2,227 nucleotides of DNA from Naegleria gruberi (taxonomy: Eukaryota), in NCBI GenBank assembly GCA_000004985.1, contig GG739277.1, one strand, 5' to 3'. Under the pieces are notes generated by a model that was not told the DNA's origin, did not search any database, and saw nothing but the letters and a program-made list of their open reading frames with translations. The translations under genes were made by a program, and so were the position numbers. This document shows, piece by piece, positions 2 to 2,227 of this stretch (positions are counted from its first letter, which is position 1; each line of letters begins with the position of its first letter).

Positions 2-508
2 AGGTCAACATCTCGTGTTGAAGCCTTGAGACCATCCCTTCAATTTTGGGCCAATATTGAGAGAAGAGTTTTTCCAATTTCATGGTCTTATGATAAGATT
101 AAAAGAGGAATTATTTTTATTTGGTCCTTGATTGATAGAAAAGCTTTGAAACGTGATCCAATTTTCTATCATCATATTGAAGGTTTCATTCAGAGAAAAG
201 ATCATTATGATCCTTTCATTTTCAAACTCACTAGTGCCATGTTAGTCATTGGTTTCAGACTTTTCGCTAGACCAGGTGAATTAGCTAGACTCAAGTGGTG
301 TTATGTTACAAAGCTTAGAAATGGTAACATCAAATTAGATCTCAGTGGTCACAAAACAGATTTCTTTCTACTAGAAAAGCCGATGACTATTGACAAGCAT
401 CTTGAAAATCCTTTAGTGTGTCCAGTGAAATTGCTTTTTGATTACATGTCTAATTCTGAGCGAAGTGAAGAATGGACTTGTTTTCATTGTAAACTTAATA
501 AAATATAA
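2..508 (+). CDS. Partial CDS, 5' end outside the window (frame 2 is open from base 2; the first codon in the ORF track is TTG, not ATG). Tyrosine-recombinase-like protein fragment with a Box I Arg motif and a beta-hairpin Lys; it lacks the C-terminal HxxR/Tyr half.
   Basis: There is no stop in frame 2 from base 2 to the TAA at 506-508. The translation contains ...SAMLVIGFRLFARPGELARLKWCYVTK... (nt ~236-310). This aligns to YR Box I, e.g. lambda Int TGQRVGDLCEMKWSDI, with the pattern R-x-G-[DE]-L-x-x-[LM]-K-W-x-x-[IV]. SGHKTDFFLLEKP at nt ~347-385 resembles the catalytic Lys hairpin (Int SKTG). The R-to-K spacing is 28 residues, as in Cre (R173/K201). The protein ends ~50 aa after the Lys, without HxxR or a Tyr nucleophile. 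Confidence 0.55.
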   Translation, partial: RSTSRVEALRPSLQFWANIERRVFPISWSYDKIKRGIIFIWSLIDRKALKRDPIFYHHIEGFIQRKDHYDPFIFKLTSAMLVIGFRLFARPGELARLKWCYVTKLRNGNIKLDLSGHKTDFFLLEKPMTIDKHLENPLVCPVKLLFDYMSNSERSEEWTCFHCKLNKI

Positions 509-523
509 GTTGAGTATTTTTCC

Positions 524-538
524 ATGCTCAAAAAATTA
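524..538 (+). promoter_or_regulatory. Leader motif copy A: ATGCTCAAAAAATTA, 20 nt upstream of the ORF2 ATG. It contains an out-of-frame uATG.
   Basis: A 15-nt string that matches 1909-1924 exactly except for one extra A in the A-run there. Same orientation, and a similar distance to the downstream start codon. Confidence 0.4.
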
Positions 539-543
539 TCACA

Positions 544-1536
544 ATGGCCCCAACACCAACTACACCAAAGAACAACAAGAAAACGAAAGACCTTAGCTCA
601 CCTTCTGCAGGTAGCGAGCAACGAGTCATTGTTCTAACTCCTTCCACCTCAAATTCTTCTGATAGTTCTGCTATGCCTTCACCTCCTCCTGTTCAAGACA
701 CAAAGAAGAACAAGAAGAACAATCAACAAAAGATATCACCTGGCAAAGACTCAAACAACGCCAAGGTTGGTTCACAAGGTGCTTCTGCTCTCGCTTCTTC
801 GATGGAATTGTTTGAGTCCAACCCATCTGAAGAGGTTTCTGGTAAAAGAGCAAGAGTTGCTGATGAACCAGATGATTGGTTTAAAAACCACGTCATCGAC
901 TCTTACCAAAGAATGTTTGGTGAGTCATTGAAAGAAGATTTGCCGTTGGAAGAAGCTGTTTCTCTTCTATTCGAAACAGCCAATGCTCCATACGCTGACA
1001 ACTTGGAATTCAAGAATAGAATGGCTGCTCTTGAATTGTTGTTCAGAAAAGAAGTAGACACTCCCATTCCAGATTCATCTGGTATAAAAGATATTAAAAG
1101 TAAAGGTTATTCTTTACTTTTAACAAACTCTTTTATCATCTCTCAAATCTGCAAGCGTTTGAGAGAGAGTGATACCCTTGATTTACCGCTTATTCTTCAA
1201 GGATTTGAATTTATTCAGAATATTTCTGAGTTAAATCTAGTCTGTATTCGAATGGGCATTAAAAATGGCTTTGAAGCAGCTGAAAACTTCTCTAACAGCT
1301 ACAAATCAGGAGGTTCACTTGACCAAATCACCTCCAAACAACAAGAGAAGGCCATTAAATCTGCTGAAAAAGTAAAAGCAGTAGAAACCATTGAAAAAGT
1401 CAGCAAATGGGCCAGCAGAACCCCTAATTTTCATAAGTTCCCCACTAGATACGATAATCTTAGTAGTACCGTTTCAGTTTTACCTAGTTGTAATAAACAC
1501 CGGAAATTTATTTATGTTTTTAACAATAAAAGCTGA
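544..1536 (+). CDS. Hypothetical protein, 330 aa. The N-terminal ~110 aa are low-complexity (S/T/P and K/N rich, with basic clusters). The C-terminal ~200 aa look globular and are of unknown function.
   Basis: A complete ATG-to-TGA ORF of 993 nt in frame 1. Yeast-like codon usage (AGA Arg, TTG/TTA Leu, no CTG codons). The N-terminus (MAPTPTTPKNNKKTKD...KKNKKNNQQKISPGKD...SGKRARV) has NLS-like basic runs and an S-P-x-K Cdk-consensus site. I do not recognise the C-terminal domain. Confidence 0.55.
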   Translation: MAPTPTTPKNNKKTKDLSSPSAGSEQRVIVLTPSTSNSSDSSAMPSPPPVQDTKKNKKNNQQKISPGKDSNNAKVGSQGASALASSMELFESNPSEEVSGKRARVADEPDDWFKNHVIDSYQRMFGESLKEDLPLEEAVSLLFETANAPYADNLEFKNRMAALELLFRKEVDTPIPDSSGIKDIKSKGYSLLLTNSFIISQICKRLRESDTLDLPLILQGFEFIQNISELNLVCIRMGIKNGFEAAENFSNSYKSGGSLDQITSKQQEKAIKSAEKVKAVETIEKVSKWASRTPNFHKFPTRYDNLSSTVSVLPSCNKHRKFIYVFNNKS

Positions 1537-1559
1537 AAGTAGTCAAATGATGATATTTG

Positions 1560-1600
<41 letters not shown>

Positions 1601-1710
1601 AATTGATGTTAGATATTAGTTGTTCCATTTATTTTTAAACTACTCCATCAACCTCCATGAATCTAGTTGTCTATTTCTTGTTGTAAGAGTTTTTCTTTGT
1701 TTTAATAAAC
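1537..1710 (+). terminator. Probable 3' UTR and polyadenylation region of ORF2. TATATA-type efficiency element ((AT)18) followed by A/T-rich positioning sequences, including AATAAA at ~1703.
   Basis: In S. cerevisiae-type 3'-end formation the efficiency element is UAUAUA, followed by an A-rich positioning element and a Py(A)n cleavage site. The (AT)18 tract lies directly downstream of the TGA at 1534-1536, and T-rich/A-rich runs follow (ttttaattgatg, atttatttttaaac, tttaataaac). Confidence 0.4.
1562..1597. repeat. (AT)18 dinucleotide microsatellite.
   Basis: A perfect 36-bp alternating AT run, read directly in the sequence. It begins 25 bp after the ORF2 stop codon. Confidence 0.95.
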
Positions 1711-1908
1711 AACTATCATAACTCTACTTTTACTACTTCTAATAACAGTGTTTTTGTAATATTTTTACAAAGTTTGTTTTTTCTTTGAATTTATTTTCTT
1801 TGGATTTACCATAAAGATTATTACTTCCAATGTAGAGTTGCGAGGAACGATGCAACGTTAGTATTACGACAAATTGTAAACAATAAAATTGAGTTGATAA
1901 ATAATTTT

Positions 1909-1924
1909 ATGCTCAAAAAAATTA
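1909..1924 (+). promoter_or_regulatory. Leader motif copy B: ATGCTCAAAAAAATTA, 27 nt upstream of the ORF3 ATG at 1936. Its own ATG is in frame with ORF3.
   Basis: Second copy of the motif found at 524-538. A 15/16-nt exact repeat is not expected by chance within 2.2 kb. Confidence 0.4.
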
Positions 1925-1935
1925 AGTATATTGAA

Positions 1936-2227
1936 ATGGTTCAAACACCAAGCAAGGCGAATATTTCCAACATTCGTCAAAGAGTTTCAGCAAGCAAATC
2001 TTCAACTTCTACCTACAAGTCAGGTTACATCCCAGTAACTGACAATGGTAGCTCAGCTTCACTCCCCTCTGTGGTTGACCCAACATCCAAAACCTTGGAT
2101 AACAACCAAGCTGGTTCTGAAAAGAACCTTGATGCTATTCTCAACGCCATCACTTCTTTGGGTGAGAGAATAAAGCATCTCGAAGCTGTTCCTCCTGTTC
2201 TGCAACAAGCTAATCAACTTGATGAAG
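1936..2227 (+). CDS. Partial CDS, 3' end outside the window. Hypothetical protein with an S/T-rich N-terminus followed by a probable helical segment. An alternative in-frame start lies at 1909.
   Basis: Frame 1 is open from 1789 to the window end. ATGs are at 1909 and 1936, and the sequence around 1936 (aaATGg) is the better context. The translation is MVQTPSKANISNIRQRVSASKSSTSTYKSGYIPVTDNGSSASLPSVVDPTSKTLDNNQAGSEKNLDAILNAITSLGERIKHLEAVPPVLQQANQLDE. It is not in the ORF track only because no stop occurs inside the window. The first 17 coding nt and the N-terminal peptide resemble ORF2. Confidence 0.5.
   Translation, partial: MVQTPSKANISNIRQRVSASKSSTSTYKSGYIPVTDNGSSASLPSVVDPTSKTLDNNQAGSEKNLDAILNAITSLGERIKHLEAVPPVLQQANQLDE

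What the first reader, a model, noticed from the sequence alone, without database searches (positions are those of the whole stretch)
506..546. Only 35 bp separate the ORF1 stop from the ORF2 start on the same strand
Yeast nuclear genes in tandem normally have several hundred bp between a stop codon and the next ATG, to fit a terminator and a promoter. Here the TAA at 506-508 is followed by the ORF2 ATG at 544, and that spacer also contains the conserved leader motif. The ORF2 promoter would therefore have to lie inside ORF1 coding sequence. The alternatives are that ORF1 is a pseudogene or element remnant inserted at the ORF2 promoter, that ORF1 and ORF2 share one transcript, or that the real ORF2 start is a downstream Met (M44, M87, M114...). 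ORF1 is in frame 2 and ORF2 in frame 1, so a single +/-1 event could once have joined them.
Basis: seen in the sequence. Interest (0 to 1): 0.5.

Follow-up and report, generated by a model that had tools for sequence, protein, structure and literature searches.

The report
Truncated recombinase gene abutting retrotransposon gag
The 35-bp gap is not two tightly packed yeast genes: it is a junction in Naegleria gruberi transposon debris, where a broken tyrosine-recombinase gene reads by chance into the conserved leader of a neighbouring retrotransposon's gag gene. This is ordinary.

Summary
In detail: TAA at 506-508, ATG at 544-546, a 35-nt gap, and the motif ATGCTCAAAAAA at 524-535 and again at 1909-1920. 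The premise is wrong. The window is a whole 2227-bp scaffold of the amoeboflagellate Naegleria gruberi, not yeast.

ORF1 is a fragment of a tyrosine-recombinase (YR) gene from a DIRS-order retrotransposon. It is about 95% identical to residues 75-223 of intact 326-aa N. gruberi copies, up to nt 448. The remaining 103 residues, which include the HxxR box and the catalytic Tyr, are absent.

From nt 450 the sequence is a conserved ~94-nt leader. In related elements this leader lies directly upstream of the first (gag-like) ORF. ORF1's last 19 codons and its TAA are therefore chance read-through into that leader.

ORF2 is the gag-like ORF. Its M1 is conserved in relatives. It is cut after residue 305 (nt 1458), and its pol and YR genes are missing. 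Its own family carries a different YR type (40% identity to ORF1's type), so two different elements meet at this junction.

ORF3 starts a second gag family with its own copy of the leader. The window is therefore a cluster of truncated retrotransposon pieces. No operon, frameshift or promoter puzzle remains. Interest is low.

The parts
2..448 (+). Fragment of a tyrosine-recombinase (YR) gene of a DIRS-order retrotransposon (P0011/P0035 family). It is cut at the 5' side by the contig end and truncated at the 3' side. It keeps the box-I Arg (FARPGEL) and the GHKTD Lys region, but lacks HxxR and the catalytic Tyr.
   Evidence: 93-96% identity to residues 75-223 of the intact 326-aa N. gruberi proteins P0011 and P0035, ending at 'LLFDYM'. 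Homologues carry PF00589. Relatives continue with SGHSLRIG...Y. No trace of that part was found elsewhere in the window by tblastn at E<=10.
449..449 (+). Junction between the YR fragment and the leader. This single base cannot be assigned to either side.
   Evidence: YR homology ends at 448: intact copies read ...FDYM(D/N)TVQ. Leader homology to L001 starts at 450, at CTAATTCT.
450..543 (+). Conserved 5' leader of the gag-bearing element. It contains the fortuitous ORF1 stop (TAA 506-508), the invariant blocks ATTGTAAAC (486-494) and ATGCTCAAA (524-532), and an A/T-rich AATAAAAT box (497-504). It is the inferred site of the element's own promoter and transcription start.
   Evidence: Window 450-547 matches L001 117-212 at 81% identity. 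A 39-nt block (465-503) is 97% identical, although the two gag proteins share only 56% of residues. Shuffle tests gave 0 of 2000 shuffles reaching the score against L001, L003 and the second leader. L001 1-116, upstream of its leader, is unrelated to any element protein.
544..1458 (+). gag-like ORF (ORF2), residues 1-305. It is the first ORF of a gag-pol-YR retrotransposon and is truncated at its 3' end.
   Evidence: 100% identity to NAEGRDRAFT_54940. 98% identity over residues 1-305 to the 361-aa P0033. 56-62% identity to the first ORFs of L001 and L008, which are followed by RVT_1 pol and YR genes. M1 is invariant.
1459..1536 (+). Read-through tail of ORF2: 25 codons plus the stop, beyond the second breakpoint. 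It is not gag sequence.
   Evidence: After '...FPTRYDN' P0033 continues with an N-rich tail, whereas the window reads LSSTVSV.... No RT or YR remnant lies downstream. The same tail occurs in P0002 on a 196,593-bp N. gruberi scaffold.
1537..1840 (.). AT-rich non-coding stretch (GC 21-25%) with a (TA)n microsatellite at about 1562-1597. Its origin is unknown.
   Evidence: Composition profile and repeats. No similarity to any fetched locus or element protein.
1841..1935 (+). Second copy of the leader, upstream of ORF3. The robust similarity covers 1872-1924.
   Evidence: Local alignment to leader 1 scored 48 against 17.5+/-2.8 in shuffles, with 0 of 2000 shuffles reaching it. It shares ATTGTAAAC (1873-1881) and ATGCTCAAAAAA (1909-1920).
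1936..2227 (+). First 97 codons of a second gag-like gene (ORF3), from a different element family. It runs off the 3' end of the contig.
   Evidence: 100% identical to residues 1-97 of the 341-aa N. gruberi protein P0028. Profile comparison of this family with the ORF2 family gives 93% probability, E 2.7e-7. The L010 gag belongs to this family and is followed by pol and YR.

Best explanation
The window is a small cluster of truncated DIRS-order (tyrosine-recombinase) retrotransposon pieces in the Naegleria gruberi genome.

ORF1 is the middle of a YR gene from one element family, broken after codon 149 (nt 448). Directly joined to it, from nt 450, is the 5' end of a copy from a different family: a conserved ~94-nt leader followed by the gag-like ORF2. 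The YR reading frame stays open by chance for 19 codons into the leader, until a TAA at 506. This creates the appearance of two intact genes 35 bp apart. ORF2 does not need a promoter inside ORF1.

What is shown: the identities of the pieces, both breakpoints, the conservation of the leader, and the gag-pol-YR order in intact relatives.

What is inferred: the leader carries the element's own transcription and translation start signals. It has an A/T-rich box about 25-27 nt upstream of the invariant ATGCTCAAA block, which itself lies about 12-20 nt before the ATG.

My preferred origin for the junction is one element copy, or a fragment of one, integrating into or recombining with a resident copy of another family. 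DIRS-1 elements are reported to do this. ORF2's element was then, or already, cut at the gag/pol boundary (nt 1458). A third family's 5' end (leader 2 plus ORF3) lies about 380 bp further on.
For: Organism and gene identity.

ORF1 is a YR fragment ending at nt 448. Intact paralogues (P0011, P0035, P0036-38) continue for 103 residues that include HSLRIG and the catalytic Tyr.

ORF1 residues 149-167 match the translated L001 leader, not any recombinase.

The leader is conserved. It is 81% identical to L001 overall, with a 39-nt block at 97%, against 56% protein identity for gag. Its similarity to L003 and to leader 2 is also significant.

In L001 the leader is preceded by unrelated DNA from exactly the homologous position, so nt 450 behaves as an element terminus.

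The order gag - pol (RVT_1 plus a Dam-like region) - YR holds in L001, L008, L010 and L012.

ORF2's start is conserved. Its 3' truncation at residue 305 is shown.

The junction is heterologous. P0033, the 98%-identical full-length gag, and the YR P0043 both come from an ENA contig of 4239 nt. P0043 is of the L001/P0019 type and only 40% identical to ORF1's type.

Similar junctions of a truncated YR with a leader occur in L003 and in L010/L011, where the downstream gag start resembles the L012 family rather than the element's own.

The same neighbours (ORF2-type gag 54068, ORF3-type gag 54067, intact YR 54063) lie together on a 196,593-bp N. gruberi scaffold.

DIRS-like sequences are already reported in N. 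gruberi (PMC3266345) and N. lovaniensis (PMC6125883). DIRS-1 is reported to insert preferentially into existing DIRS-1 copies (PMC7192593).
Against: No full-length genomic copy with both termini could be fetched, so the true ends of these elements are not defined. That nt 450 is a terminus rests on two loci only (the window and L001).

In L012 (an assembly that closes on itself) and L013 (a linear contig), an intact YR is naturally followed after 137 and about 124 nt by a leader-like sequence and a gag start. YR-then-gag adjacency is therefore a normal feature of these elements (split direct repeats or tandem units). The window junction could be a deletion or recombination within such an arrangement rather than a nested insertion.

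Placing P0033 and P0043 on one contig is inferred from their equal contig length (4239) and shared source. It was not read directly.

Promoter function of the leader is untested.

The window is a tiny unplaced scaffold, so a chimeric assembly cannot be excluded.
Confidence: 0.85

Rival explanations
1. The general picture is the same (retrotransposon debris, chimeric ORF1), but the junction arose inside a tandem or split-direct-repeat arrangement. In that arrangement a YR gene is normally followed after about 125-140 nt by the leader and gag start. A deletion, an aberrant reverse-transcriptase template switch at the 5' end of the RNA, or YR-mediated recombination then removed the last 103 YR codons and the post-YR spacer.
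For: L012 closes on itself through a 30-nt terminal overlap, with the YR stop at 3850 and a gag ATG at 3988. L013, a linear contig, shows the YR stop followed after about 124 nt by a gag-like start. Three junctions share a fixed leader side and a variable YR side: the window, L003 and L010/L011. That pattern is what a site-specific or strand-transfer error at the leader start would produce.
Against: ORF1's YR type and ORF2's gag family appear to belong to different elements. The L010 junction also joins different families. An intra-element deletion does not explain that, unless mixed tandem arrays exist. L001 shows the leader preceded by unrelated DNA.
Confidence: 0.3
2. The junction at 448-450 is an assembly or cloning chimera in a very small unplaced scaffold built from repeat-derived reads.
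For: The window is an entire 2227-bp scaffold made only of repeat fragments.
Against: No repeat shared between the two sides was found at 448-450 that could mislead an assembler. Analogous YR|leader junctions occur in independent assemblies, and L010 and L011 from two samples are identical over the ~170 nt compared across the junction. The ORF2 tail and its ORF3-type neighbour recur on a 196,593-bp scaffold.
Confidence: 0.05
3. ORF1 and ORF2 are a functional coupled pair: bicistronic, linked by frameshift or readthrough, or with ORF2 starting at a downstream Met and its promoter inside ORF1.
For: Only the short spacing and the same-strand arrangement.
Against: ORF1 lacks the catalytic half of the recombinase. 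Its C-terminus is leader sequence. ORF2's M1 and its N-terminus are conserved. The normal gene order is gag-pol-YR.
Confidence: 0.02

Closest known systems
[quoted passage not shown]
   Same: They share a gag-like first ORF without a zinc knuckle, a pol with RT and a Dam-like methyltransferase region, and a YR gene on the same strand. A copy of the 5' leader and gag start lies downstream of the YR (L012, L013), as expected for A1...B1-A2-B2 split direct repeats (definitions in PMC4157794).
   Different: The split direct repeats were not demonstrated on a complete genomic copy. The Dam-like hits are below Pfam's cut-off. No phylogeny was done. The window itself holds only fragments (half a YR, a truncated gag, a gag start) and no RT.
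DIRS-1 of Dictyostelium discoideum (DIRS1-like superfamily)
   Same: Both are retrotransposons that use a tyrosine recombinase and encode gag, RT/RH/MT and YR. DIRS-1 copies accumulate in clusters and are reported to insert into pre-existing copies (PMC7192593). That matches the nested-fragment picture here.
   Different: The DIRS1-like order is GAG-YR-pol, with inverted terminal repeats and internal complementary regions (PMC3266345). The Naegleria relatives have gag-pol-YR, and no inverted terminal repeats were seen.
Ngaro / VIPER elements
   Same: They share the gag-pol-YR order and internal repeats downstream of the YR (PMC4157794).
   Different: Ngaro and VIPER lack the methyltransferase domain. 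The Naegleria pol proteins show a consistent, though sub-threshold, Dam-like region in three families.
Previously reported DIRS-like sequences of Naegleria
   Same: Piednoel et al. 2011 list 7 DIRS-like sequences in 6 families in N. gruberi. RepeatMasker finds 89 DIRS fragments in N. lovaniensis.
   Different: Those reports left the N. gruberi sequences unclassified because of frameshifts and indels. They describe neither the leader nor this junction.

Membership tests
DIRS order (tyrosine-recombinase retrotransposons) | A tyrosine recombinase of the phage-integrase type is encoded by the element | tested here: met
   ORF1 is about 95% identical to P0011 and P0035. Relatives hit PF00589 (P0022 at 44 bits, P0008 at 28.6 bits, cut-off 27.1). 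There is a weak XerA hit in the PDB.
DIRS order (tyrosine-recombinase retrotransposons) | A reverse transcriptase lies in the same element as the YR and a gag-like first ORF | tested here: met
   Met in relatives: L001, L008, L010 and L012 have gag - RVT_1 pol (72-87 bits) - YR. Not met within the window itself, which holds no RT remnant.
DIRS1-like superfamily | ORF order GAG - YR - pol | tested here: not met
   All four multi-gene relatives have gag - pol - YR. Definition from PMC3266345.
DIRS1-like superfamily | Inverted terminal repeats plus internal complementary regions | tested here: inconclusive
   No reverse-complement copy of the leader was found in the window or in L001, L008-L013 by self-BLAST. 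However, no complete genomic copy with both ends was available.
PAT-like elements | Methyltransferase domain in pol | tested here: inconclusive
   PF05869 (Dam) is matched at the same place in three pol proteins, with 23.1, 24.8 and 26.2 bits. All are below the 28.1-bit cut-off.
PAT-like elements | Split direct repeats A1-B1-A2-B2 | tested here: inconclusive
   A leader-like sequence plus a gag start follows the YR in L012 and L013, as an A2 copy would. L012's 30-nt end overlap could equally reflect a tandem array or a circle. B2 and the flanks were not seen.
Ngaro / VIPER | Absence of the methyltransferase domain | tested here: inconclusive
   Consistent sub-threshold Dam-like matches argue against absence.
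Active tyrosine recombinase (for ORF1 itself) | Complete catalytic set: Arg (box I), Lys, His-x-x-Arg (box II) and the nucleophilic Tyr | tested here: not met
   ORF1 keeps FARPGEL and GHKTD but ends before SGHSLRIG and the ...PY/RY Tyr that all intact relatives have. Assigning these motifs to catalytic roles rests on general knowledge of the family.
   ORF2 and ORF3 are 100% identical, and ORF1 about 95% identical, to Naegleria gruberi NEG-M predicted proteins.

The most novel reading that the evidence does not exclude
The 5' end of the conserved leader may be a defined recombination or strand-transfer point that repeatedly becomes joined to recombinase-coding DNA of resident elements. The window, L003 and L010/L011 are three independent junctions at three different YR positions, and two involve different families. 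That could mean Naegleria DIRS-order elements preferentially target the YR genes of other copies. If so, these junctions would give a sequence-level handle on target choice by a eukaryotic retrotransposon tyrosine recombinase, which has not been determined experimentally. The palindrome-rich spacer and the conserved TCTCGGRAC..ACCCATTWGTAT motif at the YR stop would be candidate recombination sites. Caveat: two of the three junctions were retrieved through YR homology, so the apparent enrichment is biased by how they were found.
Probability: 0.12. Interest if true: 0.45.

Novelty: new member of a known kind. Interest (0 to 1): 0.15.

Why it matters
The main value is as a correction. An apparent 'two genes 35 bp apart' puzzle disappears once the organism and the repeat nature of the sequence are known. 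Three N. gruberi 'predicted proteins' can be re-annotated as retrotransposon gag or recombinase fragments: NAEGRDRAFT_54940 (ORF2) and its paralogues NAEGRDRAFT_54067 and NAEGRDRAFT_54068.

There is also a modest gain. The work outlines the organisation of Naegleria DIRS-order elements, which earlier surveys left unclassified. They are compact units of about 4.1 kb with the order gag-pol-YR. A leader is conserved across families, and a second conserved motif sits at the YR stop.

Tried and rejected
- Pfam on the three window ORFs gave no hits.
- BLAST of the window against plasmids gave no match. This ended an initial idea of a yeast 2-micron-like or linear plasmid.
- A JGI metagenome scan with the gag alignment confirmed no relatives.
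- A degenerate leader pattern in metagenome contigs gave 4 loci (L004-L007). All are chance matches with no element proteins. The same pattern gave none in viral contigs.
- The AlphaFold model of ORF2 from a 4-sequence alignment had mean pLDDT 41 and was all-helical at 112-290. It was too poor for a fold search, so none was run.
- A PDB sequence search with the gag profile found nothing meaningful.
- Rfam gave only sub-threshold chance hits.
- The leader shows no conserved RNA structure: consensus energy -0.41 kcal/mol, single-sequence z-score -1.6.
- I considered that the leader is a relic of the YR C-terminal coding region, because tblastn extends P0006 and P0012 through the L003 leader. I rejected this as the main reading. 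Identity drops abruptly from about 81% to about 33% at 'ISSKG', and P0011 and P0016 alignments stop there.
- I considered an intron joining ORF1 to a downstream YR exon and rejected it. No YR C-terminal coding sequence exists anywhere in the window, and GTCTAA at 448 is a poor donor site.
- Contig look-ups for the N. gruberi proteins P0002, P0004, P0006 and P0024 failed. The large N. gruberi scaffolds could therefore not be read.
Full report
**Observation.** The coordinates are right. Frame 2 is open from nt 2 to a TAA at 506-508. A 330-codon ORF starts at ATG 544-546 in frame 1, and 35 nt lie between them. The 12-mer ATGCTCAAAAAA occurs at 524-535 and again at 1909-1920, just upstream of a third ORF that starts at 1936. 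About 0.09 matches are expected by chance.

**Source.** ORF2 is 100% identical to a Naegleria gruberi predicted protein (NAEGRDRAFT_54940, EFC35399.1) whose contig is 2227 bp long, the length of the window. ORF3's 97 codons are 100% identical to the start of another N. gruberi protein, P0028 (NAEGRDRAFT_54067).

**ORF1.** ORF1 is part of a tyrosine-recombinase gene.
- Its closest relatives are intact 326-aa N. gruberi proteins, P0011 and P0035. ORF1 matches their residues 75-223 at 93-96% identity, ending at 'LLFDYM', which is nt 448.
- The intact proteins and more distant relatives continue for 103 residues. These contain SGHSLRIG (box II) and the Tyr region.
- No trace of that segment exists anywhere in the window.
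- Relatives carry the phage-integrase domain PF00589.
- ORF1 therefore cannot encode an active recombinase.

**What follows nt 448.**
- Window 450-547 aligns to L001 117-212 at 81% identity. It includes a 39-nt block (465-503) that is 97% identical.
- In L001, an ENA metagenome contig from a Naegleria-like organism, this sequence lies directly upstream of the ATG of the ORF2 homologue.
- The two gag proteins share only 56% of residues, so the leader is more conserved than the coding sequence next to it.
- In translation, ORF1 residues 149-167 match the L001 leader, not any recombinase.
- ORF1's last 19 codons and its stop codon are thus chance read-through into a non-coding leader. The real boundary is at 448/450.
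- In L001 the 116 nt upstream of the leader are unrelated to any element protein. This suggests that the start of the leader is an element terminus.

**ORF2 and the element type.**
- In L001 the ORF2 homologue is the first of three same-strand ORFs. It is followed by a 645-aa pol (RVT_1) and then a recombinase.
- The same gag - pol - YR order is seen in L008, L010/L011 and L012.
- Three pol proteins also show a Dam-like methyltransferase region at the same position, just under Pfam's cut-off.
- This marks the elements as tyrosine-recombinase retrotransposons of the DIRS order. Their order is unlike DIRS-1 itself (GAG-YR-pol with inverted repeats) and like PAT or Ngaro-type elements (definitions: PMC3266345; PMC4157794).
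- DIRS-like sequences have already been reported in N. gruberi (7 sequences in 6 families, left unclassified) and in N. lovaniensis (89 fragments).

**ORF2's start and end.** M1 is invariant in the four aligned homologues, and the first 34 residues are conserved in P0004. P0033, a 361-aa protein from an independent contig, starts identically and is 98% identical over residues 1-305. After '...FPTRYDN' P0033 continues with an N-rich tail, while the window diverges. ORF2 is therefore cut at nt 1458, and its last 25 codons are again read-through. No pol or YR remnant follows.

**ORF3 and the second leader.** ORF3 begins a second gag-like family. A profile comparison with the ORF2 family gives 93% probability, E 2.7e-7. 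L010 shows this family followed by pol and a P0013/P0014-type YR. Upstream of ORF3 is a second copy of the leader. The shared blocks are ATTGTAAAC, an AATAAAAT box and ATGCTCAAAAAA, and no shuffle in 2000 reached the alignment score.

**Are ORF1 and ORF2 from one element?** Probably not.
- P0033 and the recombinase P0043 both come from an ENA contig of 4239 nt. That length fits one gag-pol-YR unit.
- P0043 is of the L001/P0019 type and only 40% identical to ORF1's type.
- N. gruberi thus has at least three families, and the window joins pieces of all three.
- The same neighbours sit together on a 196,593-bp scaffold: ORF2-type gag (54068), ORF3-type gag (54067) and an intact P0011-type YR (54063). 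That scaffold's ORF2-type copy has the same read-through tail, so the arrangement has been duplicated.

**How the junction arose.**
- L012 has an exact 30-nt overlap between its two ends. I read this as a k=31 assembly closing on itself. It gives a 4097-nt unit in which the YR stop (3850) is followed after 137 nt by a leader-like sequence and the gag ATG (3988).
- L013, a linear JGI contig, shows a YR stop followed after about 124 nt by a gag-like start.
- A copy of the leader downstream of the YR is therefore normal for these elements. It is what split direct repeats, tandem units or circular forms would give.
- The window differs. Its YR is cut 103 codons early and belongs to another family.
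- Comparable truncated-YR|leader junctions exist in L003, where identity to N. fowleri P0006 falls from 81% to about 33% right after 'ISSKG' and the leader begins there.
- They also exist in L010/L011. There the YR is cut after HSLRIGAT, and 18 nt after its premature stop comes an ATG whose context resembles the L012 family. The two contigs, from two samples, are identical over the ~170 nt compared across the junction.
- I favour insertion of, or recombination with, a copy of another family. This agrees with the reported tendency of DIRS-1 to insert into existing copies.
- A deletion or template-switch error within a mixed array remains a serious rival. The data cannot separate the two, because no complete genomic copy with flanks could be fetched.

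**The leader's function.** No conserved RNA fold was found and there is no Rfam match. Conservation is at the level of primary sequence. An A/T-rich box lies about 25-27 nt upstream of the invariant ATGCTCAAA block, which itself lies 12-20 nt before an AATGG start context. I infer a compact internal promoter and start region. This would explain why ORF2 needs nothing from ORF1. It is untested.

**Verdict.** The elements are new members of a known kind. Interest is low.

Noticed in passing
L012:1-4127 (Logan contig from ERR2815209): The first and last 30 nt are identical, so the contig closes on itself into a 4097-nt unit: gag (about 382 aa across the join), pol (640 aa), YR (285 aa) and a 137-nt spacer. 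It may represent a tandem array, collapsed split direct repeats or an extrachromosomal circle of a DIRS-order element.
   Followed up: partly
L008:3719-3745, L009:2704-2730, L012:3848-3873, L013:2390-2412: A DNA motif, TAATCTCGGRAC(3-4 nt)ACCCATTWGTAT, is conserved at or just after the YR stop codon in three families whose YR proteins share only 33-37% identity. In several YRs it is read as the C-terminal '...(T/I)H*'. It is absent from the window at up to 6 mismatches. It could be a cis-acting terminus or recombination site.
   Followed up: partly
L013:2418-2519 and L012:3884-3995: The spacer between the YR stop and the gag start is rich in inverted repeats. Examples are CAAACATGTTAT/ATAACATGTATG with 7 nt between the arms, and a 16-nt pair at L013 2486-2519. 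They recall recombinase binding sites. They were not tested.
   Followed up: no
L003:815-915; L010:3620-3666 and L011:2440-2480: There are two further junctions where a recombinase gene is cut short and a leader or gag start follows, at different YR positions (after 'ISSKG' and after 'HSLRIGAT'). L010 and L011 come from two different samples and are identical over the ~170 nt compared across the junction. These loci were found through YR homology, so the recurrence may be a selection effect.
   Followed up: partly
window:465-505 (frame 2); L001:132-208; L003:838-880: In ORF1's frame the leader encodes EEWTCFHCK. The L001 leader encodes the same peptide, and L003 encodes a similar one (NEGHECFDCK), each with a CxxC. 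In L001 this frame is continuous with gag but has no upstream ATG. Leader 2 lacks the first Cys. It is probably not coding, but the conservation pattern is unexplained.
   Followed up: no
window:646-759 (ORF2 residues 35-72): The N. gruberi paralogues P0002 and P0034 lack exactly these 38 residues. This is either a 114-nt deletion or an intron invented by the gene models. The segment is present in P0033 from an independent contig.
   Followed up: no
P0039 (NAEGRDRAFT_60086, 5,723-bp N. gruberi scaffold): This 631-aa predicted protein joins an ORF3-type gag directly to a P0014-type recombinase with no pol between them. It looks like an internally deleted (non-autonomous) copy or a merged gene model.
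   Followed up: no
window:1562-1597: A (TA)n microsatellite of about 18 units lies inside a 300-nt stretch with 21-25% GC, between the truncated ORF2 and the second leader. The origin of this stretch is unknown.
   Followed up: no
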